Source: Bacteroidia bacterium | GTDB lineage: Bacteria > Bacteroidota > Bacteroidia > AKYH767-A > OLB10 | Length of the DNA stretch: 64,000 nucleotides | NCBI GenBank assembly: GCA_038215705.1 | Contig: JBBQQQ010000010.1 | Span: 452-64,451, forward strand | Reading direction: 5' to 3' | Shown here: positions 441 to 16,267 of the stretch, in pieces | Numbering within the stretch: position 1 is the first letter of the stretch | Layout: each line of letters begins with the position of its first letter | Notes under the pieces: generated by a model | Told to the model about the DNA's origin: nothing | Database searches by the model: none | What the model saw: only the letters and a program-made list of their open reading frames with translations | Made by a program: the position numbers and the translations under genes

Positions 441-2012
441 ATGAAAATAGCACTATTCTGCTTTCTTTTTACAGTTTGCTTTCTGCCGGTAAGTTCACAA
501 TATCGTTTCCAGAAAAAGCATGTTTATACTAATATTGTTGATGAGTATAACGCAATTGTACAGACTTCTGACAGCGGGTATGCTGTTGCCGGTAGCCCTG
601 GAGCAACAAATAACGATGCTGACCTGGTTCTTACCAGGATGAATAAACTCGGCGATACCTTATGGACCCGTACTTTTGGGAGTCCTACAATTGGAAACCA
701 GGAGAGTTGCTGGGCCAGATCCCTTGTGCAGGCAGATGATGATGGATTTTTTATAGCGGGGTATACAGAAGGTTTTGGCAGTACCAATTTTAATTATTAC
801 CTGGTACGTACCAACCCACTGGGAGATACTTTATGGACACGCACATTAAGCTATCCGAACAGCGGGCACGATTACGCTTATTCCTGCCTGCAAACTTCAG
901 ATGGGAATTTTGTTGCTTTTGGCAGACAGGGAGTTTTCAATGTCGATTTTTACCTTTCCAAATGGGATGATACGGGTTCATTGTTGTGGAACAAAAAATA
1001 TGATCTCGGTTCGAACCATGATTTCGGAAACTCGGTGGATGAAACTTCTGATGGAGGTTTTATTATGGGTGGTTATACAAATGCGAACGGGGCAACACCT
1101 GAAATTCTGGTGGTCAGAACCGACAGCACCGGGACTTTGCAGTGGGCAAAAAAATTTGCTTCAGCATCCGACAATCAATGCAATTCTGTGATGCAAACGA
1201 GCGATGGCGGTTACGTGATTGCAGGGACGTCCCAGTATAATATTTTTGTTATAAAGCTCAACAGTACCGGCGATACTAGCTGGTCCCGGATCTATGGAAA
1301 TACAGCTGTTGAGTATGGAATGAAGATCAGGGAAATTCCCGGAAATGGTTATATCATTACTGGAGAAGCCTTTAATACATCCATCTCGCAGAGTCAGATG
1401 TGCCTGGTAAGAATTGATCCATCCGGAAATATAATGTGGTCAAATACTTATGGATCCTCTTCAGTGAATAGTGAAGGGATGGATGTTTCTCTTGCCATTG
1501 ACGGAGGCTTTATTGCATGCGGCCACATCTTTGATTCCCCCCGGGGAGGTTATATTGTTAAAACAGATGCAGCCGGTATCAGCGGATGTAACCAGTCACC
1601 CCTTATACTGAATTCATCCGCAACATCTTTCCAGGTTAGTACAGTGACACCCACCGTAAGTGCTTCCGCACAAGTCGGCTATCCTCCATCCATTGTAGGC
1701 AGTGGGTTGAGTGAAACGCTTTATTGCTTTTCTACGGGCTTAGATGATGAAATTTCTAACAGGAACATTTTTACCATATATCCCAACCCCGCATTTGATC
1801 AGGTTACTGTTCAGTACGAGGGGAATAGTGAGAACGTAACACTGAATATTTACTCCTTAATGGGAGCTCTTGTGCATGAAAGCAAGATTTTACCGGGCGA
1901 TACAAAAATTGATATCCTTAGCCTGGAACCCGGATTGTACATAGCTGAAATTAAAAGTTTAACCGGCAGCTCCAATAAAAAGTTTGCCGTAGCGAGCATG
2001 TTTAATAATTAA
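441..2012 (+). CDS. Secreted beta-propeller repeat protein with T9SS type A C-terminal sorting domain
   Basis: Signal peptide; repeated QTSDGG(F/Y)...G.T / G(D/N)TLW.(R/K)T(F/Y)G blades; C-terminal IYPNPA...G.Y...K motif. Confidence 0.85.
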   Translation: MKIALFCFLFTVCFLPVSSQYRFQKKHVYTNIVDEYNAIVQTSDSGYAVAGSPGATNNDADLVLTRMNKLGDTLWTRTFGSPTIGNQESCWARSLVQADDDGFFIAGYTEGFGSTNFNYYLVRTNPLGDTLWTRTLSYPNSGHDYAYSCLQTSDGNFVAFGRQGVFNVDFYLSKWDDTGSLLWNKKYDLGSNHDFGNSVDETSDGGFIMGGYTNANGATPEILVVRTDSTGTLQWAKKFASASDNQCNSVMQTSDGGYVIAGTSQYNIFVIKLNSTGDTSWSRIYGNTAVEYGMKIREIPGNGYIITGEAFNTSISQSQMCLVRIDPSGNIMWSNTYGSSSVNSEGMDVSLAIDGGFIACGHIFDSPRGGYIVKTDAAGISGCNQSPLILNSSATSFQVSTVTPTVSASAQVGYPPSIVGSGLSETLYCFSTGLDDEISNRNIFTIYPNPAFDQVTVQYEGNSENVTLNIYSLMGALVHESKILPGDTKIDILSLEPGLYIAEIKSLTGSSNKKFAVASMFNN

Positions 2013-2295
2013 CCCTGATTAGTTAAGCAATAATTTTTATTCACCTGTATCCATTGCTCAAGTATAGGTCACGATTCCCCGTCACCTGGTTGTACGGAGA
2101 TTTAAAACCCGTTTCTTAATCGGGTAAATCTGAAAATTGTGCTCATTTTTTAAACGTTCAGACTTGTATACTTTAGCAAATTTATTGTTGTGCTTTTTCC
2201 AGGCTATAGAACTATTTTTACATAACCTGTTAATCATATTTTATCAGGCAGTGATTTGAAAAATTTTACTAAAATTATTTTATAACGTAACCACC

Positions 2296-5067
2296 ATGAA
2301 ATTTATACAGATGCGTTCCTTTTTGTTTGTTGCATTTTGTTTTAATTATTCTATCGTAATGTCGCAGAATTATGATACCTATCCTCCAATTCCCGGAGCT
2401 ACGCCTGCCACTGTGATGAATGATGTTGCATTCGATAACTCAAACCGTTTCTGGATTAATACAGCAAGTATCGGTACAGCCGTTTATGATTCGATTTCTA
2501 ACAGCTGGTGGATGCTGAATATCAGTAACGGCTTACCGTCGGATACAACCACTTGCATCAGTTTTCAGGGTAATGAAGCCTGGATAGGAACCAGTAACGG
2601 GGCTGCCCGGTATTCGGGTTATCCTACTCAGGGTGGCAGCATTCTTAATACTTACACAACTCCGCAACTTCCGGGAATTGTTGTTACGGATATTTTTTCA
2701 GAAACCGGTTATGTATGGTTTGGAACGCATGCCGGACTGGCACGACTTGAAATAGCGAATAACAACTGGAATTACTATTCCCTGGTGAATGACTCGATAA
2801 CCAAAATTATGCGCGATGGAAACGGAAATCTCTGGGTAGGTACGCGCAATGGGCTTTGCATGACAAGTGATAATGGAATTACCTGGAATACATTCACACC
2901 CGGTACTACCAATAATGTGCTCAGTCCCTATATTTACGACCTGGAATATGACACGTATGGAAGAGTGTGGATCTCTTCCGGAATTTTATCATTTCAGAAT
3001 GTTCCGACAGGTGGTGTTTGTTATTTCCTGAATTCTATTTTCAAACCATTTCGACTTGAAGATTTTGAATACGGTTATGCCTATGGCGCTTATGTTGGAC
3101 GAGGTATAAATTTTGCCAAAGATATTGCCGGTCGTGTACTTTTTATCAATTCCAATCAAAGTGCAGCATATGGTCAACTGGTAAATCCATGGGATTGTGA
3201 TTTGTTACATTTTCAGGTCAATCCGATTTTGGCTGGATTCTCATGTTCAGGTACTGCTTTATATGGTTATATTCATGAGATCATGCCAAATGGTAAAATG
3301 TGGCGGTCTACCAGGCGAAACATTTGTCCTGTATCATTTGAATATGAAGATTATCTAAATCCGATTACACAAACTATATTACCTGAGATACCATCGAGTA
3401 ATACCTGTGCCGGTTGCGCGTACCCGACAATCGGGCAAAATGATTTTGATATCAATCTCGTAAGGACTACAATTTTATCAGGTGGTGATATGCATTGGGA
3501 CCTGAGTAATCCCCAATATGAGGTTCCGAAGGGTTCGGGTAAGCATACGGTATTCGCATCGTCACATTGGATCGGGGGAATTGATGCCGGTGGTCAAACC
3601 CGTGTGGCAGCTCAAACATATCGTCAGACAGGGAATGATTTCTGGGCCGGACCGTTAGATGAAATGAGTATTGTGCCCGGTGATTCAACATCACTTTATT
3701 TCGACGAGGTTTATAAAGTGAGCCGATGGGAAATTGAAGCATTTAAAAATCATTTTCTCAACAATACCGTATCCTATCAGCAGTGTAATAATAATGTACC
3801 GCTTAGCATTATTAACTGGCCTGCTAAAGGCAATGGAATTGTTACGGGTAATCTGGCACCATTTGTTGATGTTGATGGTAACGGTTTATACAACCCGCTT
3901 ACCGGAGGTGATTATCCTGATATTTTAGGTGACCAGATGTTGTATAAAATTTTTAATGACTCACTGAATGTTCATACAGAATCCGGCAGCGAGCCTATGG
4001 GCGTGGAATTGCGTACTTCCGTGTACGGATTTCTATGTGATAACAGTACTCCTGTAAATGATGTGATTAACTATACAACGTTTTATAAAACTGAAATGAT
4101 TAACCGGAGCAATCGTAATTATACGGATGTATATTTTGGTTTTTGGGTTGATTCAGACCTGGGCAATGCAACAGATGATTATGTGGGTTGTGATGTAGGG
4201 CGAAATGCCGGGTTTACATACAATGGTGATGCGGATGATGAAACTGCATCCGGGTATGGATTGAACCCGCCCATTATGAATGTAAAAGTCCTGCATGGCC
4301 CCATTGCACCTTCAGGAGATGGAATGGATAATAATAATAACGGTACAACTGATGAGCCTGGAGAATATTTTGGAATGAATAAATTTCTTTCATACTATGG
4401 CGCAAATGCCAGTCCTATAGGAAATCCAAATGGTTACCAGGATTTTTACAATTTTCTAAGAGGAGTGTGGCTGAATAACCAACCGATGACATATGGGGGA
4501 AACGGATATAATTTTAGTAGCACTGTTTGTAATTTTATGTACCCCGGAACTACGGATCCCGTTAATTTTCCATTATATGGTGATTGGTCTGAATTCACTG
4601 CCGGAAACCCTGCGGAAGACAGACGGTTTCTTATGAGCAGTGGTCCGTTCACTTTAAACGCAGGTGATACTGTCGTTTATGATTATGCGTATGTTTTCAG
4701 CAGGGATTCTCTGAGCGGTGGTAATCTCAATTTTACGCTCAACAACGCAAATTTAGATCTTGTTCAGTCCTGGTTTAATAACAGCAGTTTTCCGGGATGT
4801 ACTGTATATTCAGTAGGCATTGAAGAGGAGGAGGGTCATGGTATTTTGGTTTATCCTAATCCCGCAACCAATAAGATCAATATAACACTGAGTTCTAAAA
4901 ATACGCGAAACATACACTATGAAATTATTAATCTTCTTGGGGAAAATGTTGCCAAAGGAATTCTTTCTTCATCAACAATTGACATTGACTATTTAGCACC
5001 TCAAATGTATGTTTTGAAACTAAAGAGTGAAAATACGGTATGGATAACAAGATTTATGAAACAGTAA
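2296..5067 (+). CDS. Secreted protein: N-terminal two-component-regulator-type propeller repeats, conserved uncharacterised middle domain, T9SS type A CTD
   Basis: Signal peptide; GNLWVGT.NGL / WFGT.AGL blades; YEVPKGSGKH..F...WIGG...AAQTYRQ.GNDFW.GP block; DxDxNG Ca-type loops; VYPNPA CTD. Confidence 0.8.
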   Translation: MKFIQMRSFLFVAFCFNYSIVMSQNYDTYPPIPGATPATVMNDVAFDNSNRFWINTASIGTAVYDSISNSWWMLNISNGLPSDTTTCISFQGNEAWIGTSNGAARYSGYPTQGGSILNTYTTPQLPGIVVTDIFSETGYVWFGTHAGLARLEIANNNWNYYSLVNDSITKIMRDGNGNLWVGTRNGLCMTSDNGITWNTFTPGTTNNVLSPYIYDLEYDTYGRVWISSGILSFQNVPTGGVCYFLNSIFKPFRLEDFEYGYAYGAYVGRGINFAKDIAGRVLFINSNQSAAYGQLVNPWDCDLLHFQVNPILAGFSCSGTALYGYIHEIMPNGKMWRSTRRNICPVSFEYEDYLNPITQTILPEIPSSNTCAGCAYPTIGQNDFDINLVRTTILSGGDMHWDLSNPQYEVPKGSGKHTVFASSHWIGGIDAGGQTRVAAQTYRQTGNDFWAGPLDEMSIVPGDSTSLYFDEVYKVSRWEIEAFKNHFLNNTVSYQQCNNNVPLSIINWPAKGNGIVTGNLAPFVDVDGNGLYNPLTGGDYPDILGDQMLYKIFNDSLNVHTESGSEPMGVELRTSVYGFLCDNSTPVNDVINYTTFYKTEMINRSNRNYTDVYFGFWVDSDLGNATDDYVGCDVGRNAGFTYNGDADDETASGYGLNPPIMNVKVLHGPIAPSGDGMDNNNNGTTDEPGEYFGMNKFLSYYGANASPIGNPNGYQDFYNFLRGVWLNNQPMTYGGNGYNFSSTVCNFMYPGTTDPVNFPLYGDWSEFTAGNPAEDRRFLMSSGPFTLNAGDTVVYDYAYVFSRDSLSGGNLNFTLNNANLDLVQSWFNNSSFPGCTVYSVGIEEEEGHGILVYPNPATNKINITLSSKNTRNIHYEIINLLGENVAKGILSSSTIDIDYLAPQMYVLKLKSENTVWITRFMKQ

Positions 5068-5352
5068 ACTTTTTCAATTTCTCTCTGATATTACGACCTG
5101 ATCAGGATACCCTAATTAAATTGTTGACCGTGGACAATGATGAATAAAATTTTCTTGTATCAACATATTTATAAATATTTTGTAACTGCTTGTACTAGGT
5201 TTTTATCAATTAGTAATAGTTTAAAGGTTAACAAATGGGTGGATATTACCCGGCATATGTCCCCCGTGTGGCACTAAAAAATTTATGTTAAATTAGCATT
5301 TATTTGAAATTTAATTTAAATTTGACCAAACTAACCTAAACAAACAAAAAAC

Positions 5353-5811
5353 ATGAAAAGATTCCTCTTATTTGGAGGGCTTATAGCCCTTCTTGGCTTT
5401 GTGGCGTGTAAAGATGACGAAGATGATCCGATTATTCCTACACCGCTGCCCACGTTTCCCAGTGGTCAGTACAAGGTTGCAAAAATTGAATTCCGTGATT
5501 CTACGAATCAATTGGTTCAAACATTTACACAGCCAAACGATTCTACACAGTACTTGTACTATAATGCATTGGGTCAATTTGCGAAAGCCGTCAGGGTTAA
5601 GCCTACTGAATGTATTGACAACTGGACTGATTTTACAAATTCCCTGGGTTTTGCTACGTATGATTCAACACAATTCTTTCCTCCGCTGAATATTATAAAG
5701 TTGCATTTTTATGTGGGATGGCAATCGGCTGGATTTGGTGATGAGGAATACCTGTTTTATTATTTAACAAAATCCAGTTACCTACAGGCTGATACAGTTT
5801 CCTGTAATTAA
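5353..5811 (+). CDS. Hypothetical lipoprotein, probably surface-exposed
   Basis: Lipobox FVA-C followed by acidic KDDEDD export-signal-like stretch; TAAATTTG -7 box upstream. Confidence 0.75.
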   Translation: MKRFLLFGGLIALLGFVACKDDEDDPIIPTPLPTFPSGQYKVAKIEFRDSTNQLVQTFTQPNDSTQYLYYNALGQFAKAVRVKPTECIDNWTDFTNSLGFATYDSTQFFPPLNIIKLHFYVGWQSAGFGDEEYLFYYLTKSSYLQADTVSCN

Positions 5812-5836
5812 GCAACTAAACGCGAATTATTGCATC

Positions 5837-5861
5837 AAGGGAAGAGAAATCTTCCCTTTTT
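5837..5861 (+). terminator. Intrinsic terminator
   Basis: aagggaaga-gaaa-tcttccctt followed by a T run. Confidence 0.8.
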
Positions 5862-5878
5862 ATTTTTAAATTTACTTA

Positions 5879-6195
5879 TACAATGCATTCAGTAAAATCA
5901 CGAAGGCGGGAAACCTATTCTCAGTTAAAAGCATTCGTAAAGGTAGATTCGTAAGGCGAAGCCTATTCGAGAATTTGTATTACAATGCATTTAGTAAAAT
6001 CACGAAGGCGGGAAACCTATTCTCAGTTAAAAGCATTCGTAAATTCGTAGATTCATAAGGCGAAGCCTCTTCGAGAAATATGTATTACAATGCATTCAGT
6101 AAAATCACGAAGGCGGGAAACCTATTCTCAGTTAAAAGCATTCGTAAATTCGTAGATTCGTAAGGCGAAGCCTATTCGTTATTCGTTACATTCGT
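5879..6195. repeat. Three near-identical tandem units of 102-105 bp (REP/BIME-like) with an ATTCGT(A/T) tail
   Basis: TACAATGCATT.AGTAAAATCACGAAGGCGGGAAACCTATTCTCAGTTAAAAGCATTCGTAAA starts at 5879, 5981 and 6086; each unit has an AGGCGAAGCCT hairpin. Confidence 0.92.
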
Positions 6196-6785
6196 TACTT
6201 CTCGTGGGCTTTTAACAAAAAACCATTCCTGGTCGAAGGTGCAAAAATTTGATTGGGAGATAAATCAAGGATGCTTTTTAATAAATGGTATATATCCTGG
6301 AAGCTGTTAGGCTTCTGAATATATCTTGTTGCACCTTGAAGAAAAGTTTGTTCTACCTGCTCGAGATTAGCCGAGGTCGAATAAATTAAAATTGGGATAT
6401 ACTGCAATCGGGGATCCTGTTTGAGGTTATTCAGACACTGAAAGCCGTTCATAACGGGCATGTTAAGATCAAGGAAAATAATATCCGGAGGATCCATCGT
6501 ATGCAACATGCGTAATAAATCAACACCATTAGTTGCTGTACTTACTTTAATCTTAGTTGAAATATTTGCCATCGCTTCAATAAATAATTCTTTATCATCA
6601 TCATCATCGTCGGCAATGACGATATGAAGAAAATTATTATTGTCGCTTATATCTAAAACAGATTGAATGATTTTATTGAACCCCAGGTTATTATTTAAAT
6701 TGCGAAGGAAATTACTGAAGTCATGAACATATTCCGATAAAACGCTCGATGGAATAGAATTATAAAATACAGATGTCATATTCAT
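6195..6785 (-). CDS. Stand-alone response regulator receiver protein with a ~50-aa N-terminal extension
   Basis: IVIADDD, DIIFLDLNMP (phospho-Asp), IYSTS, YIQKP motifs; ATG overlaps the kinase stop (TAATG). Confidence 0.88.
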   Translation of the reverse strand: MNMTSVFYNSIPSSVLSEYVHDFSNFLRNLNNNLGFNKIIQSVLDISDNNNFLHIVIADDDDDDKELFIEAMANISTKIKVSTATNGVDLLRMLHTMDPPDIIFLDLNMPVMNGFQCLNNLKQDPRLQYIPILIYSTSANLEQVEQTFLQGATRYIQKPNSFQDIYHLLKSILDLSPNQIFAPSTRNGFLLKAHEK

Positions 6786-8428
6786 TATTTGTGAGTGGTT
6801 ATTTTGTTTTCAAAATTTGCCTGGGATACTGGAACGATGACTGTAAATTCAGTAAAACGTTCATTGCTTTCTGCAGAAATTATACCGTGATGATAATCGG
6901 CAATTTTACGGCAAATAGCTAATCCGATTCCGGAACCGTTATATTGGGAAAGATTATGCAAACGTTCAAATGCGTTAAAAATTAGTTCTTTATACTGGGA
7001 ATCAAAACCAATACCATGATCACGGATTGTAATAGCACAAAATTCTTCCTTTGACCAGTAATAATCTTCATTCCATCCCTTGAATTTATAGTGCGTGTGC
7101 AGACGGTCAGCGTTTTTGATAGAAGAACCACTAAGAATTTTATGAAAAATTTCAATTTCAGGGCGTATTCCAGGCTTGCTGAATTTAATTGCATTACCAA
7201 TTAAGTTTTGAAATAGCTGACCCCACTGCGATGAGTTTCCTTCTATTACCGGAAGTTCCTGGATTTCAATTTTACTATCAGTGGTTTGAATACTGATTTC
7301 GAGATCGGTTAATACGTTTTGTACGATTTCATTTAAATTTATAGTGCTAAAATTTGTTAATTCCGCTGATAACCTTGAAAAGCTTAAAATGTCTTTCATC
7401 AATTGCTGCATGCGGGTGGCGGCAGTATTAATTTTCAACAAATATTTTTGACTCTGGTCATCCTTCAATAGCGCCTGATTTTCTATTTCAAGTCTGTCTA
7501 AATAGGTCTTAATTTTACGCAACGGTTCTTGTAAATCATGTGAAGCCACATATGCAAATTTCTGCAATTCCGTATTAACTTCTTCCAGCTCGAGTGATTT
7601 GGAAATTAATTCCTGTTCCGCTTTTTTATTTTCTGTTACATCCTGACCGGTTCCTATCATTTTTAAAATTTCACCTGATGCGTCTAAAATGACTTCCCCT
7701 TTTGCCTGTAAAATTTTGACATTTCCCTTGGGCGTAATTATTCTATGAAAATAATCTGTAAATTTTTTGCTCTCAAATCCCTGCCTGATGGTTTGATCAA
7801 CATAGTTTTTATCATCAGGGTGAATGAATTGAAGAAAAAAGTCATAGGTCAATCCTCCTTCAGTGGACGGTATTTCATAAATAGTAAACAATCCTTCCGA
7901 CCAGGTTACTTTATTCGAAGCAACATCCCACTCCCATGATCCCATTTTAGCAAGTGCCTGGGCTTCATTCATTTGTTTTATAATGACTTTTAATTCCTCT
8001 TCAGCACGTTTTCTGCTTTCCACCTCTGCTTCCAGCACTTCAGGCCTCTTCAACGACAAAGCAACCGGGATCAATTTTACAAGATTAAATACTGTTAGCC
8101 AACTTAGAATTCCAGTAATAAAAAGAAAGATTGCACTCACCCTGTAAATGGGTTTCCAAAATATTATTGCATCGATTAAATGCGTGATGCCACAGGATAA
8201 TATAAATGCTGCAAATAGAAAATACACCCGCGGAAATCGCACCTCTTTCCGCTTGTTGAGGTAAATTAATATGATTACGGGAATTGCAAAGTATGCTGAC
8301 CAAATTAATAGATCACTTATAATATACAGCCAGCCATGAAACTCTGTCCAGCCCTTCCCACAAAGCCAACGTGGTGGAAACTCTGAAGAATCAAACAGTT
8401 TGGTAAAAAAATCTTTAACGTCATCCAT
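6785..8428 (-). CDS. Membrane sensor histidine kinase: ETR1-like ethylene-binding domain (3 TM) + PAS + HisKA + HATPase
   Basis: ISDLLIWSAYFAIP and FAAFILSCGITHLI match ETR1 ISDFFIAIAYFSIP and FGAFIVLCGATHLI; PAS (GSWEWD...IHPDD); FAYVASHDLQEPLRKI H-box; QLFQNLIGNAIKF, DHGIGF, GSGIGL boxes. Confidence 0.92.
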   Translation of the reverse strand: MDDVKDFFTKLFDSSEFPPRWLCGKGWTEFHGWLYIISDLLIWSAYFAIPVIILIYLNKRKEVRFPRVYFLFAAFILSCGITHLIDAIIFWKPIYRVSAIFLFITGILSWLTVFNLVKLIPVALSLKRPEVLEAEVESRKRAEEELKVIIKQMNEAQALAKMGSWEWDVASNKVTWSEGLFTIYEIPSTEGGLTYDFFLQFIHPDDKNYVDQTIRQGFESKKFTDYFHRIITPKGNVKILQAKGEVILDASGEILKMIGTGQDVTENKKAEQELISKSLELEEVNTELQKFAYVASHDLQEPLRKIKTYLDRLEIENQALLKDDQSQKYLLKINTAATRMQQLMKDILSFSRLSAELTNFSTINLNEIVQNVLTDLEISIQTTDSKIEIQELPVIEGNSSQWGQLFQNLIGNAIKFSKPGIRPEIEIFHKILSGSSIKNADRLHTHYKFKGWNEDYYWSKEEFCAITIRDHGIGFDSQYKELIFNAFERLHNLSQYNGSGIGLAICRKIADYHHGIISAESNERFTEFTVIVPVSQANFENKITTHK

Positions 8429-8447
8429 ATACGCAGTTGATTTGAGG

Positions 8448-8497
8448 CAAATTTATTGAGTTTCATTGGAATTTACTTGAATTTCATTGAAATTCAA
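8448..8497 (-). promoter_or_regulatory. Kinase promoter: -7 box TAAATTTG (8448-8455) abutting two tandem 21-bp palindromic boxes
   Basis: 8477-8497 TTGAATTTCA-T-TGAAATTCAA is a perfect palindrome; 8456-8476 TTGAGTTTCA-T-TGGAATTTAC is a degenerate copy. Confidence 0.6.
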
Positions 8498-8603
8498 ATT
8501 TTTACTTTTCTCTGACATGGAGCTGTCTGCAAAAATAATTTTTTGAGAATTAATATTTATAAATCCGGCCTCCTAGATGCCCCTCTTTATTTATCCAGCT
8601 ATT

Positions 8604-8653
8604 TCTTTGCGTCCTTGGCGCCCTTTGCGTGAAACCCTTTTTATCACGCAAAA
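8604..8653. repeat. Dispersed intergenic element (CTTTGCG...GCGTGAAA), hairpin-forming
   Basis: tctttgcgtccttggcgccctttgcgtgaaaccctttttatcacgcaaaag; a related copy lies at ~20385-20430. Confidence 0.5.
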
Positions 8654-8781
8654 GATTGATCAGTTATAATATTGTGGAGTAAATTTCTCAGGTTGCCATA
8701 AAGTTTTAGTAATCATCAATTTTATTACCTGATTCGGGGGAATTTTATCCGGAAACCTCTGTAAATGCTGGTTTTTTTGAG

Positions 8782-8796
8782 TGGCACAATATTTTC
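8782..8796 (+). promoter_or_regulatory. sigma54-like -24/-12 motif upstream of the SET gene
   Basis: TGGCACAATATTTTC. Confidence 0.5.
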
Positions 8797-8842
8797 ATGA
8801 TTGCAACCAGCCACCAATTTTAACTAAATTTTATTGTATTTT

Positions 8843-9340
8843 ATGTCTGCTAGCAAGATTACTATATTCGATCATTTAATAATTGACGAAACTAATACAG
8901 GGAAGGGTATTTTTTCTGCCAAAGGGCTTGAACTAAATTATCCTGTTTGTTCTATTCGGGGTCAAATTGTGAATTTTTCTGAAACTATAAAGGATAAAAA
9001 AACCGAATCATTTTATTTGCAGATTGGGGAAGATAAATATATCAAATCGTTGTTTCCTTTTTACCTTTTTAATCATTCATGTAATCCGAATTGTGGGATT
9101 AATGAAAACATGGAATTGGTAACCATTCGACCTGTTAAAAAAGGTGAAGAGTTATGTTGGGATTTTTCCACATCAATGATGGAGCGTAGCTGGAAGATGA
9201 AGTGCAATTGTAAGGAAAAGAATTGCCGTTCTGTTATTCAGGATTTTGATACGCTTCCTCAAAATGTTCAATTGGAGTATCTTAATATGGATATTGTTTT
9301 ACCTTTTATAAGTTCTGTCTTAAAACAGAATACGTATTAA
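8843..9340 (+). CDS. SET domain protein with post-SET Cys motif (lysine methyltransferase fold)
   Basis: TGKGIFS, FNHSCNPN, GEELCWDF, CNCKEKNCR; ATG at 8843 preferred over the TTG at 8834. Confidence 0.88.
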   Translation: MSASKITIFDHLIIDETNTGKGIFSAKGLELNYPVCSIRGQIVNFSETIKDKKTESFYLQIGEDKYIKSLFPFYLFNHSCNPNCGINENMELVTIRPVKKGEELCWDFSTSMMERSWKMKCNCKEKNCRSVIQDFDTLPQNVQLEYLNMDIVLPFISSVLKQNTY

Positions 9341-11048: not shown

Positions 11049-14000
11049 ATGAAAATTTATTTCTTCAGTTTATTGCTGACTGTTCTAAACGCTGTTTCTG
11101 TTCTGGCACAGGTCAAACAATCACCGCCATTAACTCCGGATTATGATACCATGATGGTTAAAGCAACTGCTTTCACCGGTGAGGGTGAGTACAAGAAGGT
11201 AATTGATTTATTGAAGGATTTTCCTGAAAACGATACTGCCTATGCTACATCGCTGGATAAATTAGCTCTTGCTTACCTGGGTGAAGAAAAATGGGATGAG
11301 GCTATTACAACTTCCAAAAAAGGGCTTACACTACGGTCTCCGTATAAACGTCATTTTTATGAAATGCTTGCTGCGGCGTATGATGAAAAAAAAGATTATA
11401 CACAGGCCCTTGATGTGCTAAAAGAAGGACAAAAGGAATTTCCGCTTTACACCCGTTTTTATTATCAAACGGGCGTAACAAGCATGAACGCGAAAAAATA
11501 TGAGCAGGCTTATGAAAATCTGAAGACCTCAATACGGTTGAACCCATTTGAAACCAGTGCTCATCTCCAGCTGGGTTTGCTGATGTATAACAGCAACAGG
11601 ATGATCCCAGCCATGTTATCCTTTCACATTTTTTTGATGCTGGACCCTGCCACATCTAAAAGCATAAATGTACTCCGGGAATATGAGAAAATGGGAAATG
11701 GAGAATATAAAAGCAATAAAGATTCACTGTATCTGAATCTACCCGCCACCACCGATAATTTCCAGGAGCTGGAAGCCATTGTGCAGTCAAAGTTCGCTCT
11801 TAACTCTAATTATAAATCCAATGTCAAGATCAAATACAATACAATCGTTAAAACCATGCAGATCATTGGTGAAAAAATTGAAATGAATAAGGCGGATACC
11901 GGCTTTTACATGCAGTTTTATGTTCCGATCTTTTTGGAAATGGTTCAAAATAATCTTTACAACTCTTCCATTTATTATAACCTGAGATCTATCGATGATG
12001 AAGAAGTAAGAAAGGAAGTTAAAAAGCAGGATGCTAATATCACTAAAATGGCTTCCTATCTGAATAATTATTTAACCAAATACCGGCAGGATCAGTGGAG
12101 AGCTCATAAAATGGCTACGAATGACACCTGGTTCAATACGACAGGCACTTTGTCATCGGAAGGTGCGTATAACAGCAAATCCAACCTGGCAACCGGTGAT
12201 TACACCTATTATTGGCCGAGTGGTCATGTGAAAAGCAAAGGTTCTTATACAGCTTCTGGTAAGTCAACAGGCAAATGGCAGTACTATTACCCGGAAGGTG
12301 AATTGCAGGCGATAAAATATTACAAGGATGATTTGCTTGTTGATTCCACTACATTTTATCACCCTGAAGGAAATGTATCAGAGGTAATTCCTTATAAAAA
12401 TGATAAGCATAACGGAGTTGTGAAAAGCTTTTATGCAACAGGAGGGCCGCGTACACTTGTGACATTTGCCAATGGCGTTCGAACGGGTCCGGTTTTATAC
12501 CATTATGCAAATGGCAGAAAAAAACTTGAAGGCAATCTGGTTAATGAAAAATTGAATGGAAAATATATTGAGTATTATGACAATGGAAAAAAATTGGAAG
12601 AGGCTGATTACAAAGACGGTGTCATAACAGGTACATTCAAAAGCTGGTATGGCAATGGTAATCTGAAGTCTGAAGGGGCCTATAAAAATGGTTTAAAAGA
12701 AGGTGAATGGAAGTATTATCATGAGGAAGGATACCTCAATAACTCGGGTAATTATAAAGCAGGTAAGGAAGATGGTATATGGAAATCTCTTGACCAGGAG
12801 GGTAAAGTATTTTCAGAACTGAAATATTCCGGAGGGAAAATAGAAGGGGATGCCAATTTTTATGATGATGGAAAACTATGGTCCGTGCTGACTTTTGGGA
12901 AAGGCAATATCAAAAAGTATAAGTATTATGATAAGAATAATAAAGTGATTTCCGAAGGCGTTGAGAAGAATGGAGTTCTGGATCTGAAATCGTTTTATGC
13001 CGATGGCTCCCGCTTCAGAGAGCGGATTTACAAGGATGGAATTGCAATGGGAAAATGTACAACATGGAATATGTATGGCAACACGGAATCGTTAGAATAT
13101 TATGCTGATGATGAACAGGATGGGAAACAGCAGTATTATTTTGATGATGGTACCCTCAAATCAGAAATTAATTATAAAGCAGGAGTGCTTGAAGGACTGG
13201 CAGTGTATTACTACAAAAACGGGGTGATAAGCAGCCAGGGTTGGTATAAGGATGATAATAAACGCGGTGAATGGAGAGAATACAACCCTGATGGTGTCAT
13301 TTCGTCTACTGACTATTATCAGAACGGAGAGTTACAGGGTGCGTCCGTAAATTATGATGTATCAGGAAAGATGGAAACGGTTTTCACATACAATAACGGT
13401 GATCTTGTTATGTATACCGACTATGATACCCTGGGAAATATACTTATCGCTGAAAAAATTAAGAACGGTTCCGGTTCTTTTAATTCGCTTCATCTGAATA
13501 AAAAGGCAAAGTCAAATCTTAATTATAAAAATGGCAGGCTAGAGGGTGAAATAAAACGGTATTACAGCAATGGTAAGGTAAGGAACGTCATTTTGTACAC
13601 CAATGGAAGCGCTAACGGTCCGTATAAACGCTATGAATGGGATGGATCTATTGATGAAGAAGGATTTTATGAAGATGGTTATATCGACAGTACCCGGACC
13701 ACATATAAAAATGGAAAACTTTACAGTAAGGCAAATTATTTCAGGGGCGATTTGCATGGTGAGAGAGAGTTTTATTATCCCAATGGAGTCGTTTCTACAC
13801 GGGGGAACTTCAGATATGATAATCAGGAAGGTTACTTCTATTATTATGCTGATAACGGAATGGTGCGTTACCGGTTATTGTTTAAGGATGGTGATGTTCA
13901 ATCCTATTCATACCTGGCCCCTGACAGTACATTCAAGCCTGAAATTCCACTCCCAAAAAGTACAGGGGATGTTAAGGCTTTTTATCAGAATGGAAATCCT

Positions 14001-14327
14001 TCAGTGAGTTTTACTTTTAAAGGCGGTTATTATCACGGACCATTCATACAGTATTTTCCAAGTGGAAAAGTGCGGAAGGAAATAAATTATGTTTCACATG
14101 AAGAAGAAGGAACTACCAAAGAATACAATGAAGCAGGAAAGCTGGTGTCAGAAGAAAACAACAAATATGACCGCTATGACGGTGTATGCCGGTATTATAA
14201 CAACGGAGTTCTGGAGAGAGAGTCGGTGTATGTTATGAACTGGATGCACGGCCCTACAAAACTTTACGACAAAGCGGGTAAAGTTATTAAAACAGTTAAA
14301 ATGTACAATGATGAACCATTTGAATAG
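11049..14327 (+). CDS. Secreted TPR + MORN-variant (YwqK-like) repeat protein
   Basis: Signal peptide; N-terminal TPRs; ~30 YY.NG..K.EG.Y..G...G.W repeats. Confidence 0.88.
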   Translation: MKIYFFSLLLTVLNAVSVLAQVKQSPPLTPDYDTMMVKATAFTGEGEYKKVIDLLKDFPENDTAYATSLDKLALAYLGEEKWDEAITTSKKGLTLRSPYKRHFYEMLAAAYDEKKDYTQALDVLKEGQKEFPLYTRFYYQTGVTSMNAKKYEQAYENLKTSIRLNPFETSAHLQLGLLMYNSNRMIPAMLSFHIFLMLDPATSKSINVLREYEKMGNGEYKSNKDSLYLNLPATTDNFQELEAIVQSKFALNSNYKSNVKIKYNTIVKTMQIIGEKIEMNKADTGFYMQFYVPIFLEMVQNNLYNSSIYYNLRSIDDEEVRKEVKKQDANITKMASYLNNYLTKYRQDQWRAHKMATNDTWFNTTGTLSSEGAYNSKSNLATGDYTYYWPSGHVKSKGSYTASGKSTGKWQYYYPEGELQAIKYYKDDLLVDSTTFYHPEGNVSEVIPYKNDKHNGVVKSFYATGGPRTLVTFANGVRTGPVLYHYANGRKKLEGNLVNEKLNGKYIEYYDNGKKLEEADYKDGVITGTFKSWYGNGNLKSEGAYKNGLKEGEWKYYHEEGYLNNSGNYKAGKEDGIWKSLDQEGKVFSELKYSGGKIEGDANFYDDGKLWSVLTFGKGNIKKYKYYDKNNKVISEGVEKNGVLDLKSFYADGSRFRERIYKDGIAMGKCTTWNMYGNTESLEYYADDEQDGKQQYYFDDGTLKSEINYKAGVLEGLAVYYYKNGVISSQGWYKDDNKRGEWREYNPDGVISSTDYYQNGELQGASVNYDVSGKMETVFTYNNGDLVMYTDYDTLGNILIAEKIKNGSGSFNSLHLNKKAKSNLNYKNGRLEGEIKRYYSNGKVRNVILYTNGSANGPYKRYEWDGSIDEEGFYEDGYIDSTRTTYKNGKLYSKANYFRGDLHGEREFYYPNGVVSTRGNFRYDNQEGYFYYYADNGMVRYRLLFKDGDVQSYSYLAPDSTFKPEIPLPKSTGDVKAFYQNGNPSVSFTFKGGYYHGPFIQYFPSGKVRKEINYVSHEEEGTTKEYNEAGKLVSEENNKYDRYDGVCRYYNNGVLERESVYVMNWMHGPTKLYDKAGKVIKTVKMYNDEPFE

Positions 14328-16257
14328 ATTCGCTGTTGCGCTGTTATTACTGCTGTCAACAAATAACATATATGCGCAACCGGTATTCAATTTCGTGGAA
14401 TTGCAGAGTCTTTATCCCGATAAGGATGTAATTATACTCAATCAGAAAGAGCACCTTATCATTAAAAATACTTCCGCCGGATTAAAGATTCAGACTAACA
14501 AAAGTTCTGAAATACTTTATTTGTCCGAAAAAGCAAGTCATCTCCTGGAAAGGTCAATTTTTTATTATGATAATTTTACGCTGGTACGTGATATCGATGC
14601 TAATTCCTGGATACCTGATGCAGAAGGAAAAAAGCTCAGGAAAATTAGCGTAGGAAATATCTATACCCGCAAACCGGTTAATGATAATGTATTTTATGAT
14701 GATATTAAGGAAAAGTATTTTACATATCCTTCCCTGAAAAAAGGAGCCGTATCAACACTGAGTTATTCTGAAGATATTTTTGACCCTCATTTTCTTTCTG
14801 CCTTTTATTTTGGAACATATGCACCTATTGAAAATGCTGAGTTCCGAATTACCCTGCCCGATGATGTACACCTCCGTTATGTAATAAAAGATCCTTCCGG
14901 GATGATCAGCTTCCGCGAAGAGCGTTCGAGAAATACGGTTACCTATATTTTCAGTGGTGGCCGTAACAAGGGTTTTATCATGGAAGATGATGCCCCCGAC
15001 AGAAGCCATTTTCTGCCCCACGTGCTTGTATACATTGACAGCTATTCCGTAGGAGGGACCAAAAAATCGGTTTTGCCGGATGTTGATGCACTTTATGGAT
15101 GGTATCGTGAATTAATGAGCAGGATGAAAAATGAGAACCGGGCAGAGTTGAAGGAGATTTCGGATTCTCTCACTAAAAATACTCCCGATACAATTCAGAA
15201 GATAAAGAATGTTTTTTACTGGGTACAGCAGGAAATAAAATATATAGCTTTTGAAGAAGGATTGGGTGGATTTATTCCAAGGGAACCCATTGACACTTAC
15301 AATAAAAGATTCGGTGATTGTAAAGATAAGGCAATGCTGATTAATGCACTGCTGAACCAGGCCGGAATTCCGGCATACCCGGTATGGATTGGTACGAGGG
15401 ATATACCTTACCGTTATGCCGAAGTGCCTACCCCCCAGGTTGATAATCATATGATATCTGCTGTTAAAATGAATGGTGAATGGGTGTTTTTAGATGGCAC
15501 TGCTGTTCATCTGGAGTATGGACTCCCTACCTCAATGATCCAGGGGAAAGAAGGTCTTATTGGTTTGTCAGAAAAAGAATATAAAGTGGTTGAAGTTCCT
15601 GCGGTAGACCGCCTTAAAAGTGTTTCTCATGAAATTTATAATATTTCATTAAATGGTGAACGCGTAACAGGAAACGCAAGCAATTCCTTTACCGGATATT
15701 TTAAACAAAATCTCTATTATAATCTTAGCCAGTCGGGGCTGGATAAGCGGATGCAGTTCATCAATAAGCAGCTTGCACTTGGAAACAGCAAGTATGAAGC
15801 TACCAATATTACTTTTTTTCCGGGATATGAGAACCGTGATTCATTATTAGGTTATACATTTGATTTTGTACTGGATGATTATGTGACATCCGTGGATGAA
15901 AAAATGTATGTGAACCTTCACATTAAAAAACCAAATGACTATGATAAGATAGCTATTGATAAACGTTTTTCAGAAGTAATAGTGGATTTTAAGAATACAG
16001 AAATTATGGAAACCACTTTTAGTATACCGGCAGGGTACGAAATCGTAAGCATTCCGGGTGTAAATAAGTTCCATGATAAAAGTTTTGGTTATTCTGTTAT
16101 TTATGAGAAAAAAGATAACCTTGTGACTATGCGCCGCGAAATTTTTACTGATGCCCTTGCTATTGAAAAGAAAGATTTTGTTGAATGGAATAAATTCGTT
16201 TCCGGTCTGAACGATGCCAGTAAAGAACTGGTGATTATTAAAAAATCAAAACCTTAA
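14308..16257 (+). CDS. DUF3857 + transglutaminase-like domain protein, catalytic triad intact
   Basis: Signal peptide; GDCKDKA (Cys), DNHMI (His), FLDGT (Asp). Confidence 0.88.
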   Translation: MMNHLNRFAVALLLLLSTNNIYAQPVFNFVELQSLYPDKDVIILNQKEHLIIKNTSAGLKIQTNKSSEILYLSEKASHLLERSIFYYDNFTLVRDIDANSWIPDAEGKKLRKISVGNIYTRKPVNDNVFYDDIKEKYFTYPSLKKGAVSTLSYSEDIFDPHFLSAFYFGTYAPIENAEFRITLPDDVHLRYVIKDPSGMISFREERSRNTVTYIFSGGRNKGFIMEDDAPDRSHFLPHVLVYIDSYSVGGTKKSVLPDVDALYGWYRELMSRMKNENRAELKEISDSLTKNTPDTIQKIKNVFYWVQQEIKYIAFEEGLGGFIPREPIDTYNKRFGDCKDKAMLINALLNQAGIPAYPVWIGTRDIPYRYAEVPTPQVDNHMISAVKMNGEWVFLDGTAVHLEYGLPTSMIQGKEGLIGLSEKEYKVVEVPAVDRLKSVSHEIYNISLNGERVTGNASNSFTGYFKQNLYYNLSQSGLDKRMQFINKQLALGNSKYEATNITFFPGYENRDSLLGYTFDFVLDDYVTSVDEKMYVNLHIKKPNDYDKIAIDKRFSEVIVDFKNTEIMETTFSIPAGYEIVSIPGVNKFHDKSFGYSVIYEKKDNLVTMRREIFTDALAIEKKDFVEWNKFVSGLNDASKELVIIKKSKP

Positions 16258-16267
16258 ATTTTATCCT

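What the first reader, a model, noticed from the sequence alone, without database searches (positions are those of the whole stretch)
6785..8428. Ethylene-receptor-like histidine kinase in a Bacteroidota genome
Seen: residues 35-121 align to the Arabidopsis ETR1 ethylene-binding domain. Without gaps (offset +14), D39/Y46/I49/P50/I76/C79/H83 correspond to ETR1 D25/Y32/I35/P36/I62/C65/H69; in TM3, T105/S109/T112/P121 correspond to T94/S98/T101/P110. ETR1 K91 is replaced by Leu102. The domain is followed by PAS and a Cph1-class (SHDLQEPLRK) kinase. Established: these residues form the Cu(I)-dependent ethylene site in plant receptors and Synechocystis Slr1212, and homologs are known in some other bacteria. 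Inference: this is a copper-dependent gas/alkene sensor. I know of no experimentally characterised Bacteroidota example, and loss of K91 may alter affinity or ligand.
Basis: partly seen in the sequence, partly recalled or inferred. Interest (0 to 1): 0.85.

Follow-up and report, generated by a model that had tools for sequence, protein, structure and literature searches.

The report
Ethylene-receptor-type sensor kinase in Bacteroidota
A soil Bacteroidota bacterium carries a two-gene signalling system whose membrane sensor is a true relative of the plant ethylene-binding domain; such sensors are common in this phylum and untested there, and this one lacks a conserved basic residue that matters for ethylene binding in plants.

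Summary
Window 6785-8428 (-) encodes a 547-aa kinase. Residues 31-126 match Pfam ETR1_N end to end (E 8.7e-31, 106.5 bits, cut-off 27). PAS, HisKA and HATPase_c follow. A receiver-only response regulator gene overlaps the kinase stop codon by one base. D39, Y46, I49, P50, I76, C79 and H83 are all present.

A gapless BLASTP alignment to the ethylene-binding AzoEtr1 of Azospirillum places L102 opposite its K98, which the paper equates with ETR1 K91. AzoEtr1 has the same architecture and the same operon layout.

The family is not rare. It was found in 21 of 401 sampled Bacteroidota genomes. The domain gives 7126 cluster representatives at E<=0.001, and the closest named relatives are all Bacteroidota.

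Most relatives have Arg or Lys at position 102. Leu is a recurrent minority state, and Asn39 was paired with Leu in 11 of 11 cases. The query's Asp39/Leu102 state is inherited in a small clade with an intact binding site.

Verdict: a new member of a known kind. It is most likely a Cu(I)-dependent ethylene sensor, possibly with altered affinity or coupling. Interest is moderate.

The parts
6785..8428 (-). Sensor histidine kinase gene, 547 aa (EBD-PAS-HisKA-HATPase_c)
   Evidence: ORF; Pfam domains; AlphaFold2 model with mean pLDDT 84.4 and matching secondary structure
8339..8428 (-). N-terminal segment before TM1 (aa 1-30), inferred to be extracytoplasmic. It carries the family-invariant W21, C23, G24 and W27. 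C23 is the single Cys that may act like the N-terminal dimer cysteines of plant receptors.
   Evidence: Invariant columns in 94 full-length relatives; C23 counts; the single-Cys remark for cyanobacterial receptors is in PMC6682694. Topology is inferred from three helices and the basic loop at aa 58-67.
8051..8338 (-). Ethylene-binding-type domain (Pfam ETR1_N), aa 31-126, three transmembrane helices
   Evidence: Pfam E 8.7e-31; model helices at 29-59, 66-89 and 95-125; gapless alignment to the AzoEtr1 EBD
8312..8314 (-). Codon of D39 (equivalent to ETR1 D25 and AzoEtr1 D35)
8180..8194 (-). C79 to H83 (CGITH), equivalent to the Cu(I) ligands C65 and H69 of ETR1
   Evidence: both positions invariant in relatives
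8123..8125 (-). Codon CTT of L102, at the position of ETR1 K91 and AzoEtr1 K98
   Evidence: Relatives have R, K or L at this position.
7649..7909 (-). PAS_3 domain, aa 174-260, preceded by a long linker helix (aa 129-159)
7364..7567 (-). HisKA (DHp) domain, aa 288-355, with phospho-acceptor H297 in ASHDLQEPLRK
   Evidence: H297 invariant
6824..7234 (-). HATPase_c catalytic domain, aa 399-535
6195..6785 (-). Response regulator gene, 196 aa, with a receiver domain only (aa 55-169) and a poorly conserved N-terminal extension. Its ATG overlaps the kinase TAA stop by one base (TAATG).
   Evidence: alignment of 10 orthologous regulators

Best explanation
This is a two-gene two-component system. Its sensor is a three-helix, membrane-embedded ethylene-binding domain of the ETR1/SynEtr1/AzoEtr1 type.

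Inferred mechanism:
- C79 and H83 in helix 2, oriented by D39 in helix 1, hold Cu(I).
- Ethylene, or a very similar small alkene, dissolves in the membrane and binds the copper.
- The change passes through helix 3 and the linker helix and PAS domain to the kinase dimer, altering autophosphorylation at H297.
- The phosphate then goes to the receiver-only regulator encoded next door. That regulator must act by protein-protein contact, because it has no output domain.

By analogy with ETR1 and the predictions for SynEtr1 and AzoEtr1, ethylene probably lowers kinase activity. Helix 3 carries Leu instead of the usual Lys or Arg opposite D39. I therefore expect lower affinity or faster release of ethylene, or weaker coupling, than in the Lys/Arg-type relatives.

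Shown here: homology, an intact binding-site signature, architecture and operon layout. Inferred: copper binding, ligand identity, direction of regulation and downstream targets.
For: - **Domain match.** Full-length match to Pfam ETR1_N.
- **Binding-site residues.** The seven positions are present, and C79 and H83 are invariant in 120 close relatives and in 150 cluster representatives plus the query.
- **Conservation.** In 94 full-length relatives, 23 of 27 invariant columns lie in aa 21-121, so the membrane domain is the most constrained part of the protein.
- **Resemblance to AzoEtr1.** The alignment is gapless over the EBD and reaches E 1e-38 over the whole protein. AzoEtr1 has the same EBD-PAS-kinase order, a downstream receiver-only regulator and overlapping stop and start codons. 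Its first 130 aa bind 14C-ethylene saturably, and its D35A and C75A mutants fail to complement (passages of PMC11819568).
- **Structure.** The model shows three long helices followed by linker, PAS, DHp and CA.
- **Kinase and receiver motifs.** These are intact.
- **Persistence of the Asp39/Leu102 state.** It sits in a clade of 7 sequences that are 71-100% identical to one another over the EBD (71-84% to the query). In all 19 Asp/Leu sequences examined, Y46, I49, P50, I76, C79 and H83 are unchanged. This argues for a working site.
- **Copy number.** This is the only ETR1_N gene in the genome.
Against: - No biochemical data exist for any Bacteroidota member.
- In Arabidopsis ETR1, replacing K91 with a non-polar residue left copper binding intact but cut ethylene binding to about 6% (K91M) or 1% (K91A) of wild type and disturbed signalling (PMC10266040). 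Leu102 could therefore mean weak or no ethylene response.
- In relatives, loss of the basic residue usually accompanies Asp-to-Asn at position 39. The query keeps an unpaired Asp.
- The genome has no ACC deaminase over the cut-off, and nothing else in the window links the locus to plants.
- The gene was not found in the 7 same-genus genomes searched and was found in only 1 of 24 same-family genomes. It is therefore dispensable.
Confidence: 0.6

Rival explanations
1. The domain binds Cu(I), but its physiological signal is not ethylene. Candidates are another small unsaturated or pi-acceptor molecule in soil (propylene or other alkenes, alkynes, CO, isocyanides), or copper supply or the redox state of the Cu/Cys site itself. 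The Leu102 change would mark a shift in ligand or set-point.
For: The copper ligands are invariant, but the helix-3 partner of Asp39 varies (R, K, L, Y, F, Q, E). K91 mutants of ETR1 keep copper but lose most ethylene binding. ETR1 binds the competitive inhibitor 1-MCP at the same site, so the site is not strictly specific to ethylene.
Against: Every member tested so far binds ethylene (plant receptors, SynEtr1, Geitlerinema, AzoEtr1). All residues reported as needed for ethylene binding are kept here. No alternative natural ligand is documented in the passages I read.
Confidence: 0.2
2. The membrane domain is functionally uncoupled. Without the Asp-Lys/Arg bridge it no longer passes a signal to helix 3 and serves mainly as a membrane anchor and dimerisation module. 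The cytoplasmic PAS domain would then be the real sensor.
For: ETR1 K91M and some K91A lines behave as if stuck between the on and off states. Degenerate relatives exist. One is L002 from a same-family genome, with Ser at the Cys position and Leu at position 102. Another is a tandem copy in L007 with Phe at the His position. So loss of function does occur in this family.
Against: Unlike those degenerate copies, the query and all 19 Asp/Leu sequences keep every binding residue and the invariant helix-3 T105, S109, T112 and P121. The membrane domain is the most conserved part of the protein. This is hard to explain for a mere anchor.
Confidence: 0.15
3. Assembly or annotation artefact, or a pseudogene.
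For: None found.
Against: The frame is open for 547 aa with all motifs intact. The genome is estimated 100% complete with 0.01 contamination. An 83%-identical full-length relative comes from another source, and the model is confident.
Confidence: 0.01

Closest known systems
AzoEtr1 / AzoRR-etr1 of Azospirillum brasilense Sp7 (PMC11819568)
   Same: The domain order is identical: a three-helix EBD, then PAS, then histidine kinase (525 aa against 547 aa here). A receiver-only regulator gene lies directly downstream with overlapping stop and start codons. The alignment is gapless over the EBD, and D, C and H are conserved.
   Different: Overall identity is only 26%. AzoEtr1 has Lys98 where this protein has Leu102. 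The kinase H-box here is of the SHDLQEPLR type. The regulators are only distantly alike (29% over 97 aa). The hosts are an alphaproteobacterium and a Bacteroidota bacterium. Ethylene binding is shown for AzoEtr1 and untested here.
Arabidopsis ETR1 ethylene-binding domain (Pfam ETR1_N)
   Same: Three transmembrane helices, the Cys/His copper site, the Asp in helix 1, and the conserved T, S, T and P of helix 3. The match to the Pfam model built on this family covers its full length.
   Different: The helix 2-3 loop is three residues shorter, as in AzoEtr1 (His-to-Lys spacing 19 against 22). There is one N-terminal Cys instead of two. Leu replaces K91. The output is a working kinase plus a separate regulator, not GAF, a degenerate kinase and CTR1. 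I did not have the ETR1 N-terminal sequence from a tool, so the comparison is indirect.
SynEtr1 (Slr1212) of Synechocystis PCC 6803
   Same: A bacterial EBD fused to a histidine kinase that signals by phosphotransfer to a response regulator, with ethylene binding demonstrated (as described in PMC11819568).
   Different: SynEtr1 is a dual ethylene and light receptor, and its regulator activates a small RNA. This protein has a PAS domain and no photosensory module, and its regulator has no output domain. Not aligned here.
Arg/Lys-type EBD-PAS kinases of Chitinophagaceae and Cytophagales (uncharacterised, annotated as 'sensor histidine kinase' or 'ATP-binding protein')
   Same: 57-72% identity over aa 1-135 and the same architecture. 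The conserved pre-TM1 motif with W21, C23, G24 and W27 and the invariant R96 are shared.
   Different: Most carry Arg (close relatives) or Lys (more distant ones) at position 102.

Membership tests
ETR1_N / ethylene-binding domain family | Significant full-length match to the family profile | tested here: met
   PF25487 at E 8.7e-31 and 106.5 bits against a cut-off of 27, model positions 2-97 of 97; 0 of 14 control genomes match
ETR1_N / ethylene-binding domain family | Three N-terminal transmembrane helices | tested here: met
   AlphaFold2 helices at 29-59, 66-89 and 95-125, with block pLDDT of 80-89 over aa 31-120 and 77 for aa 121-130
Functional ethylene receptors (ETR1, SynEtr1, AzoEtr1) | Cu(I) ligands Cys65 and His69 and the orienting Asp25 | tested here: met
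   C79, H83 and D39 align with C75, H79 and D35 of AzoEtr1
Functional ethylene receptors (ETR1, SynEtr1, AzoEtr1) | Remaining residues required for ethylene binding (Y32, I35, P36, I62) | tested here: met
   Y46, I49, P50 and I76 are present at the right spacing. I35, P36 and I62 are named as essential in PMC6586836. Y32 is recalled.
Functional ethylene receptors (ETR1, SynEtr1, AzoEtr1) | Basic residue in helix 3 (K91) paired with Asp25 | tested here: not met
   L102 aligns with AzoEtr1 K98, which equals ETR1 K91. K91M and K91A lower ethylene binding to 6% and 1%. K91 is not among the seven residues required for binding, but it is highly conserved.
Functional ethylene receptors (ETR1, SynEtr1, AzoEtr1) | Copper binding and saturable ethylene binding | not testable with these tools
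   Needs protein expression and 14C-ethylene and copper assays
Bacterial two-component ethylene receptors (SynEtr1 / AzoEtr1 type) | [quoted passage not shown] | tested here: met
   HisKA with H297, HATPase_c, and an adjacent receiver gene overlapping by one base. Phosphotransfer itself was not tested.
Functional ethylene receptors (ETR1, SynEtr1, AzoEtr1) | N-terminal cysteine(s) for a disulfide-linked dimer | tested here: inconclusive
   A single Cys23 precedes TM1, invariant in 94 relatives, like the single Cys noted in cyanobacterial receptors. Whether it forms a disulfide is unknown.

The most novel reading that the evidence does not exclude
The Asp39/Leu102 proteins, and the Asn39/Leu102 proteins found elsewhere in the family, are a natural class of ethylene-binding domains that have given up the Asp25-Lys91 bridge while keeping the copper site. 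They would be low-affinity or fast-release ethylene sensors tuned to high soil ethylene, or sensors of a different small molecule. If so, nature has repeatedly run the experiment that was done by mutagenesis in Arabidopsis, and this protein would be a ready-made test of how ligand binding is coupled to helix 3.
Probability: 0.3. Interest if true: 0.55.

Novelty: new member of a known kind. Interest (0 to 1): 0.38.

Why it matters
Ethylene sensing outside plants and cyanobacteria has been shown experimentally only in Azospirillum and one fungus, according to PMC11819568. Bacteroidota, especially Chitinophagaceae, are abundant in soil and on roots.

This locus belongs to a large and strongly conserved family of ethylene-receptor-type kinases in that phylum, which genome annotations label only generically. 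If they work as predicted, ethylene would be a widely read gaseous cue in soil and rhizosphere Bacteroidota.

The Leu102 variant also offers a natural test of the Asp25-Lys91 coupling model for the plant receptor. The locus is otherwise an ordinary two-component operon.

Tried and rejected
**Solved structures.** A sequence search of the PDB found only kinase and PAS relatives and the ETR1 catalytic domain (4pl9). Nothing matched aa 1-130. A structural comparison with a solved ethylene-binding domain was therefore not possible, and I ran no fold search or second fold.

**Promoter and terminator scan** of 5700-8900. It found no more sites than in shuffled sequence (14 against 13.2; 2 against 2.1), and the consensus used is not the Bacteroidota type. 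Uninformative.

**Rfam scan** of the window. No RNA families.

**ACC deaminase (TIGR01274)** in the genome. Only weak PLP-enzyme matches below the cut-off. There is no link to plant ethylene metabolism, but this says little.

**Sequencing runs.** No RNA holder is listed. One DNA holder with nearly all the sampled words is marked as a possible source, and one other holds a small share that I did not lay.

**Tree-based test of Asp39/position-102 co-variation.** The 109-column FastTree has too few supported branches: 2 and 1 independent pairs on starred branches. No statistical claim is made. Only raw co-occurrence and an unsupported count of 20 maximal non-basic clades are reported.

**Literature.**
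- Searches for ethylene-binding domain with Bacteroidetes or Bacteroidota gave no relevant paper.
- One search was badly designed, because taxon words alone satisfied it, and it is uninformative.
- A search for the Pfam name found nothing relevant.
- PMC10452086 mentions Bacteroidetes only in connection with ACC deaminase.
- The bioRxiv preprint on calcium permeability of plant ethylene receptors contains no bacterial test in the passages seen.
The S-figures of PMC11819568 and the SI of PMC10266040, whose 1,221-sequence alignment may already show Leu or Asn variants, were not seen.

Full report
**What is there.**
The finding's coordinates hold one open reading frame on the minus strand, 6785..8428, of 547 aa. 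Pfam places four domains on it:
- ETR1_N, 'Ethylene receptor 1-like, N-terminal domain' (aa 31-126, model positions 2-97 of 97, E 8.7e-31, 106.5 bits against a cut-off of 27)
- PAS_3 (aa 174-260)
- HisKA (aa 288-355)
- HATPase_c (aa 399-535)

NCBIfam gives only generic kinase matches, all far below their cut-offs. L102 is codon CTT at 8123-8125, one base change away from an Arg codon.

An AlphaFold2 model built on 94 full-length relatives has mean pLDDT 84.4. It shows three long helices (29-59, 66-89, 95-125), a linker helix (129-159), a PAS fold, a DHp hairpin (265-355) and a catalytic domain.

Directly downstream lies a 196-aa protein that is a receiver domain only (aa 55-169, E 1.2e-19). 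Its ATG overlaps the kinase TAA stop by one base, TAATG. The flanking genes are on the other strand or unrelated: a SET-domain protein, a pyridoxamine-phosphate-oxidase-like protein, and proteins with a type IX secretion tail. The unit is therefore a two-gene operon.

**Is position 102 really the K91 position?**
No tool supplied the Arabidopsis N-terminal sequence, so I used a characterised bacterial receptor as a bridge.
- A tblastn search of plasmid records with aa 1-135 hit Azospirillum, cyanobacterial and other alphaproteobacterial replicons (19 records).
- The A. brasilense Sp7 hit holds a 525-aa ORF. Its length, its replicon (ABSP7_p1) and its first residues match the published forward cloning primer and the description of AzoEtr1.
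- BLASTP of the two proteins gives E 1e-38, and the alignment has no gap from residue 12 to residue 130.
- In that alignment D39, C79, H83 and L102 face D35, C75, H79 and K98.
- The AzoEtr1 paper equates these with ETR1 D25, C65, H69 and K91 (passages of PMC11819568).
- Independently, the column holding L102 is Arg or Lys in 129 of 151 sequences (150 cluster representatives plus the query).

**How common is it?**
- The genome has one copy.
- Among 40 relatives, the domain was not found in the 7 same-genus genomes searched. It was found over the cut-off in 1 of 24 same-family genomes, and one same-order genome had only a weak match below the cut-off.
- In an even sample of the phylum, 21 of 401 genomes (12 of 180 genera, G000 included) have it over the cut-off.
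- A word-indexed search with aa 1-135 returned 933 proteins. The named ones are Chitinophagaceae (Ferruginibacter, Flaviaesturariibacter, Niastella, Paracnuella, Flavipsychrobacter, Pseudobacter), Fulvivirga, Aquiflexum and Sphingobacteriales, annotated only as 'ATP-binding protein', 'sensor histidine kinase' or 'PAS domain protein'.
- A full HMMER pass over 1.84 billion cluster representatives found 7126 at E<=0.001, 4104 at E<=1e-10 and 624 at E<=1e-30.
- A scan of one genome per species found 119 relatives. The 80 kept, at 57-72% identity over the domain, are all from Bacteroidota.
- Of 75 representatives scanned (every second one of the 150 listed), 75 carry ETR1_N, 63 HATPase_c, 51 HisKA, most carry PAS domains, 12 a receiver and a few GAF.

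So this is one member of a large, patchily distributed Bacteroidota family of ethylene-receptor-type kinases. The patchiness (0 of 7 congeners) suggests an accessory function that is gained and lost.

**Constraint.**
In 94 full-length relatives, 23 of the 27 invariant columns lie in aa 21-121: W21, C23, G24, W27, G32, W33, W43, Y46, F72, F75, I76, C79, G80, T82, H83, F90, P93, Y95, R96, T105, S109, T112 and P121. The remaining four are H297 and three kinase glycine or leucine positions. The membrane domain is thus the most constrained part of the protein, as expected for the sensing module and not for a simple anchor.

The conserved block begins before the Pfam boundary, at W21-x-C23-G24. Cyanobacterial receptors are noted to have one Cys in this region where plant receptors have two dimer-forming cysteines (PMC6682694).

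**The Leu at the K91 position.**

Residue at position 102 in four sets:

| Set | n | Arg | Lys | Leu | Other |
|---|---|---|---|---|---|
| Closest proteins | 120 | 102 | 1 | 17 | 0 |
| Representatives plus query | 151 | 68 | 61 | 15 | 7 (Tyr 3, Phe 2, Gln 1, Glu 1) |
| ORFs from named genomes | 73 | 67 | 1 | 5 | 0 |
| Distinct ORFs from the even phylum sample and the relatives | 26 | 3 | 20 | 3 | 0 |

For the 73-ORF row, my script recovered a plus-strand domain ORF in 73 of the 80 loci. The other 7 were not recovered.

The three Leu cases in the last row are:
- the query;
- L015, which also has Asn39;
- L002, from a same-family genome, which also has Ser at the Cys position and so looks degenerate.

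Cross-tabulating positions 39 and 102 over 268 sequences gives Asp/Arg 165, Asp/Lys 62, Asp/Leu 19, Asn/Leu 11, and 11 others. Asn39 was paired with Leu in 11 of 11 cases.

This mirrors the Asp25-Lys91 evolutionary coupling reported for the family. It also connects to the mutagenesis in Arabidopsis (PMC10266040, passages read; abstract of PMC11971883):
- K91R keeps 63% of ethylene binding, K91M about 6% and K91A about 1%, while copper binding is unchanged in all three.
- D25N is functional but binds ethylene about 100-fold less tightly.

The query's Asp/Leu state is the less common form of the two. It is nevertheless inherited. On a FastTree of the domain, built with columns 39 and 102 removed, the query sits in a clade of 7 Asp/Leu sequences (local support 78). 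These are 71-100% identical to one another over aa 18-128, and 71-84% identical to the query. All 19 Asp/Leu and all 11 Asn/Leu sequences keep Y46, I49, P50, I76, C79, H83, R96, T105, S109, T112 and P121.

The tree shows 20 separate maximal clades without a basic residue. It is poorly supported, and the paired-comparison test had too few supported contrasts to mean anything. I therefore claim recurrence only loosely.

**Operon partner.**
Of the 73 ORFs, 36 have a receiver-only gene directly downstream. Ten of these are clear orthologues of the window's regulator (E below 1e-25), and three of those ten stand behind Leu-type kinases. Some of the 37 without one are long hybrid proteins or lie close to the end of the fetched stretch.

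The N-terminal extension of the regulator is poorly conserved among the ten orthologues, so it is not an evident output domain. AzoEtr1's partner is likewise a 135-aa receiver with no output motif.

**Mechanism.**
The best-supported reading is a Cu(I)-dependent ethylene sensor that controls a phosphorelay to a single-domain regulator, as set out under Best explanation. Homology, the site signature, architecture and operon layout are shown here. Copper binding, the ligand, the sign of regulation and the targets are inferred from ETR1, SynEtr1 and AzoEtr1.

The Leu102 substitution is the main reason for caution. By analogy with K91M it should weaken ethylene binding and coupling. Yet the intact and strongly conserved site in a whole Asp/Leu clade argues that the domain still does something selectable.

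The rivals are a different copper-bound ligand or a copper/redox signal (0.2), an uncoupled anchor with PAS as the sensor (0.15), and an artefact (0.01).

**Comparison and novelty.**
The protein meets the profile, topology and binding-residue tests for the ethylene-binding domain family. It fails one conserved but non-defining feature, the basic helix-3 residue. It works most like AzoEtr1.

I found no paper on a Bacteroidota member. However, the main surveys of bacterial ethylene-binding domains are not in the held library, and I recall, without being able to check, that they list several non-cyanobacterial phyla.

I rate this a new member of a known kind. Its secondary interest is as a natural Lys91-less variant.

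**Limits.**
- There was no direct alignment to ETR1 or SynEtr1.
- There are no expression data.
- Supplements were closed.

Noticed in passing
Alignments of relatives; window codons 8312-8314 and 8123-8125: Across 268 domain sequences, Asn at position 39 was paired with Leu at position 102 in 11 of 11 cases, and with Arg or Lys in none. This looks like a natural double variant of the Asp25-Lys91 pair studied by mutagenesis in Arabidopsis.
   Followed up: partly
L002 (G012:C10, same family as the window's genome), ORF at 1414-2568 (-): The only same-family homologue found (384 aa) has Ser at the copper-ligand Cys position, Leu at the I76 position, His at the C23 position and Leu at position 102. 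It is probably a degenerate domain that no longer binds copper.
   Followed up: no
L007 / L026 (G123:C1, about 330.2-332.2 kb): Two ETR1_N genes stand in tandem. One is a 225-aa protein with the full signature and Arg. The next is a 360-aa protein with Phe at the His69 position and Ser at the C23 position.
   Followed up: no
window 8339-8428 and 8141-8143 (aa 1-30 and R96): Strongly conserved features lie outside, or are not explained by, the plant-based description. One is the pre-TM1 motif with invariant W21, C23, G24 and W27 and nearly invariant H31, partly shared with AzoEtr1 (FFDTS...C..W). The other is an invariant Y95-R96 at the start of helix 3, where AzoEtr1 has Ala. Their roles are unknown; copper acquisition, dimerisation or a spare basic partner for D39 are possibilities.
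   Followed up: partly
L030 (Acaryochloris marina S15 plasmid), CDS 3052-5532: A cyanobacterial GAF-containing hybrid kinase with this domain has Gln at the K91 position while keeping Asp, Cys and His. Non-basic variants are therefore not confined to Bacteroidota.
   Followed up: no
window 8834-9340 (+): A 168-aa bacterial SET-domain protein (Pfam SET, E 5.2e-9) is encoded divergently upstream of the kinase. No link to the kinase was seen.
   Followed up: no
window 441-5067 and 11049-18217 (+): Two proteins carry type IX secretion C-terminal sorting domains (523 and 923 aa; the second also has two-component regulator propeller repeats). There is also a 1092-aa MORN-repeat protein. Two adjacent 649-aa ORFs follow: the first is transglutaminase-like with DUF3857, and the second has no Pfam match.
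   Followed up: no
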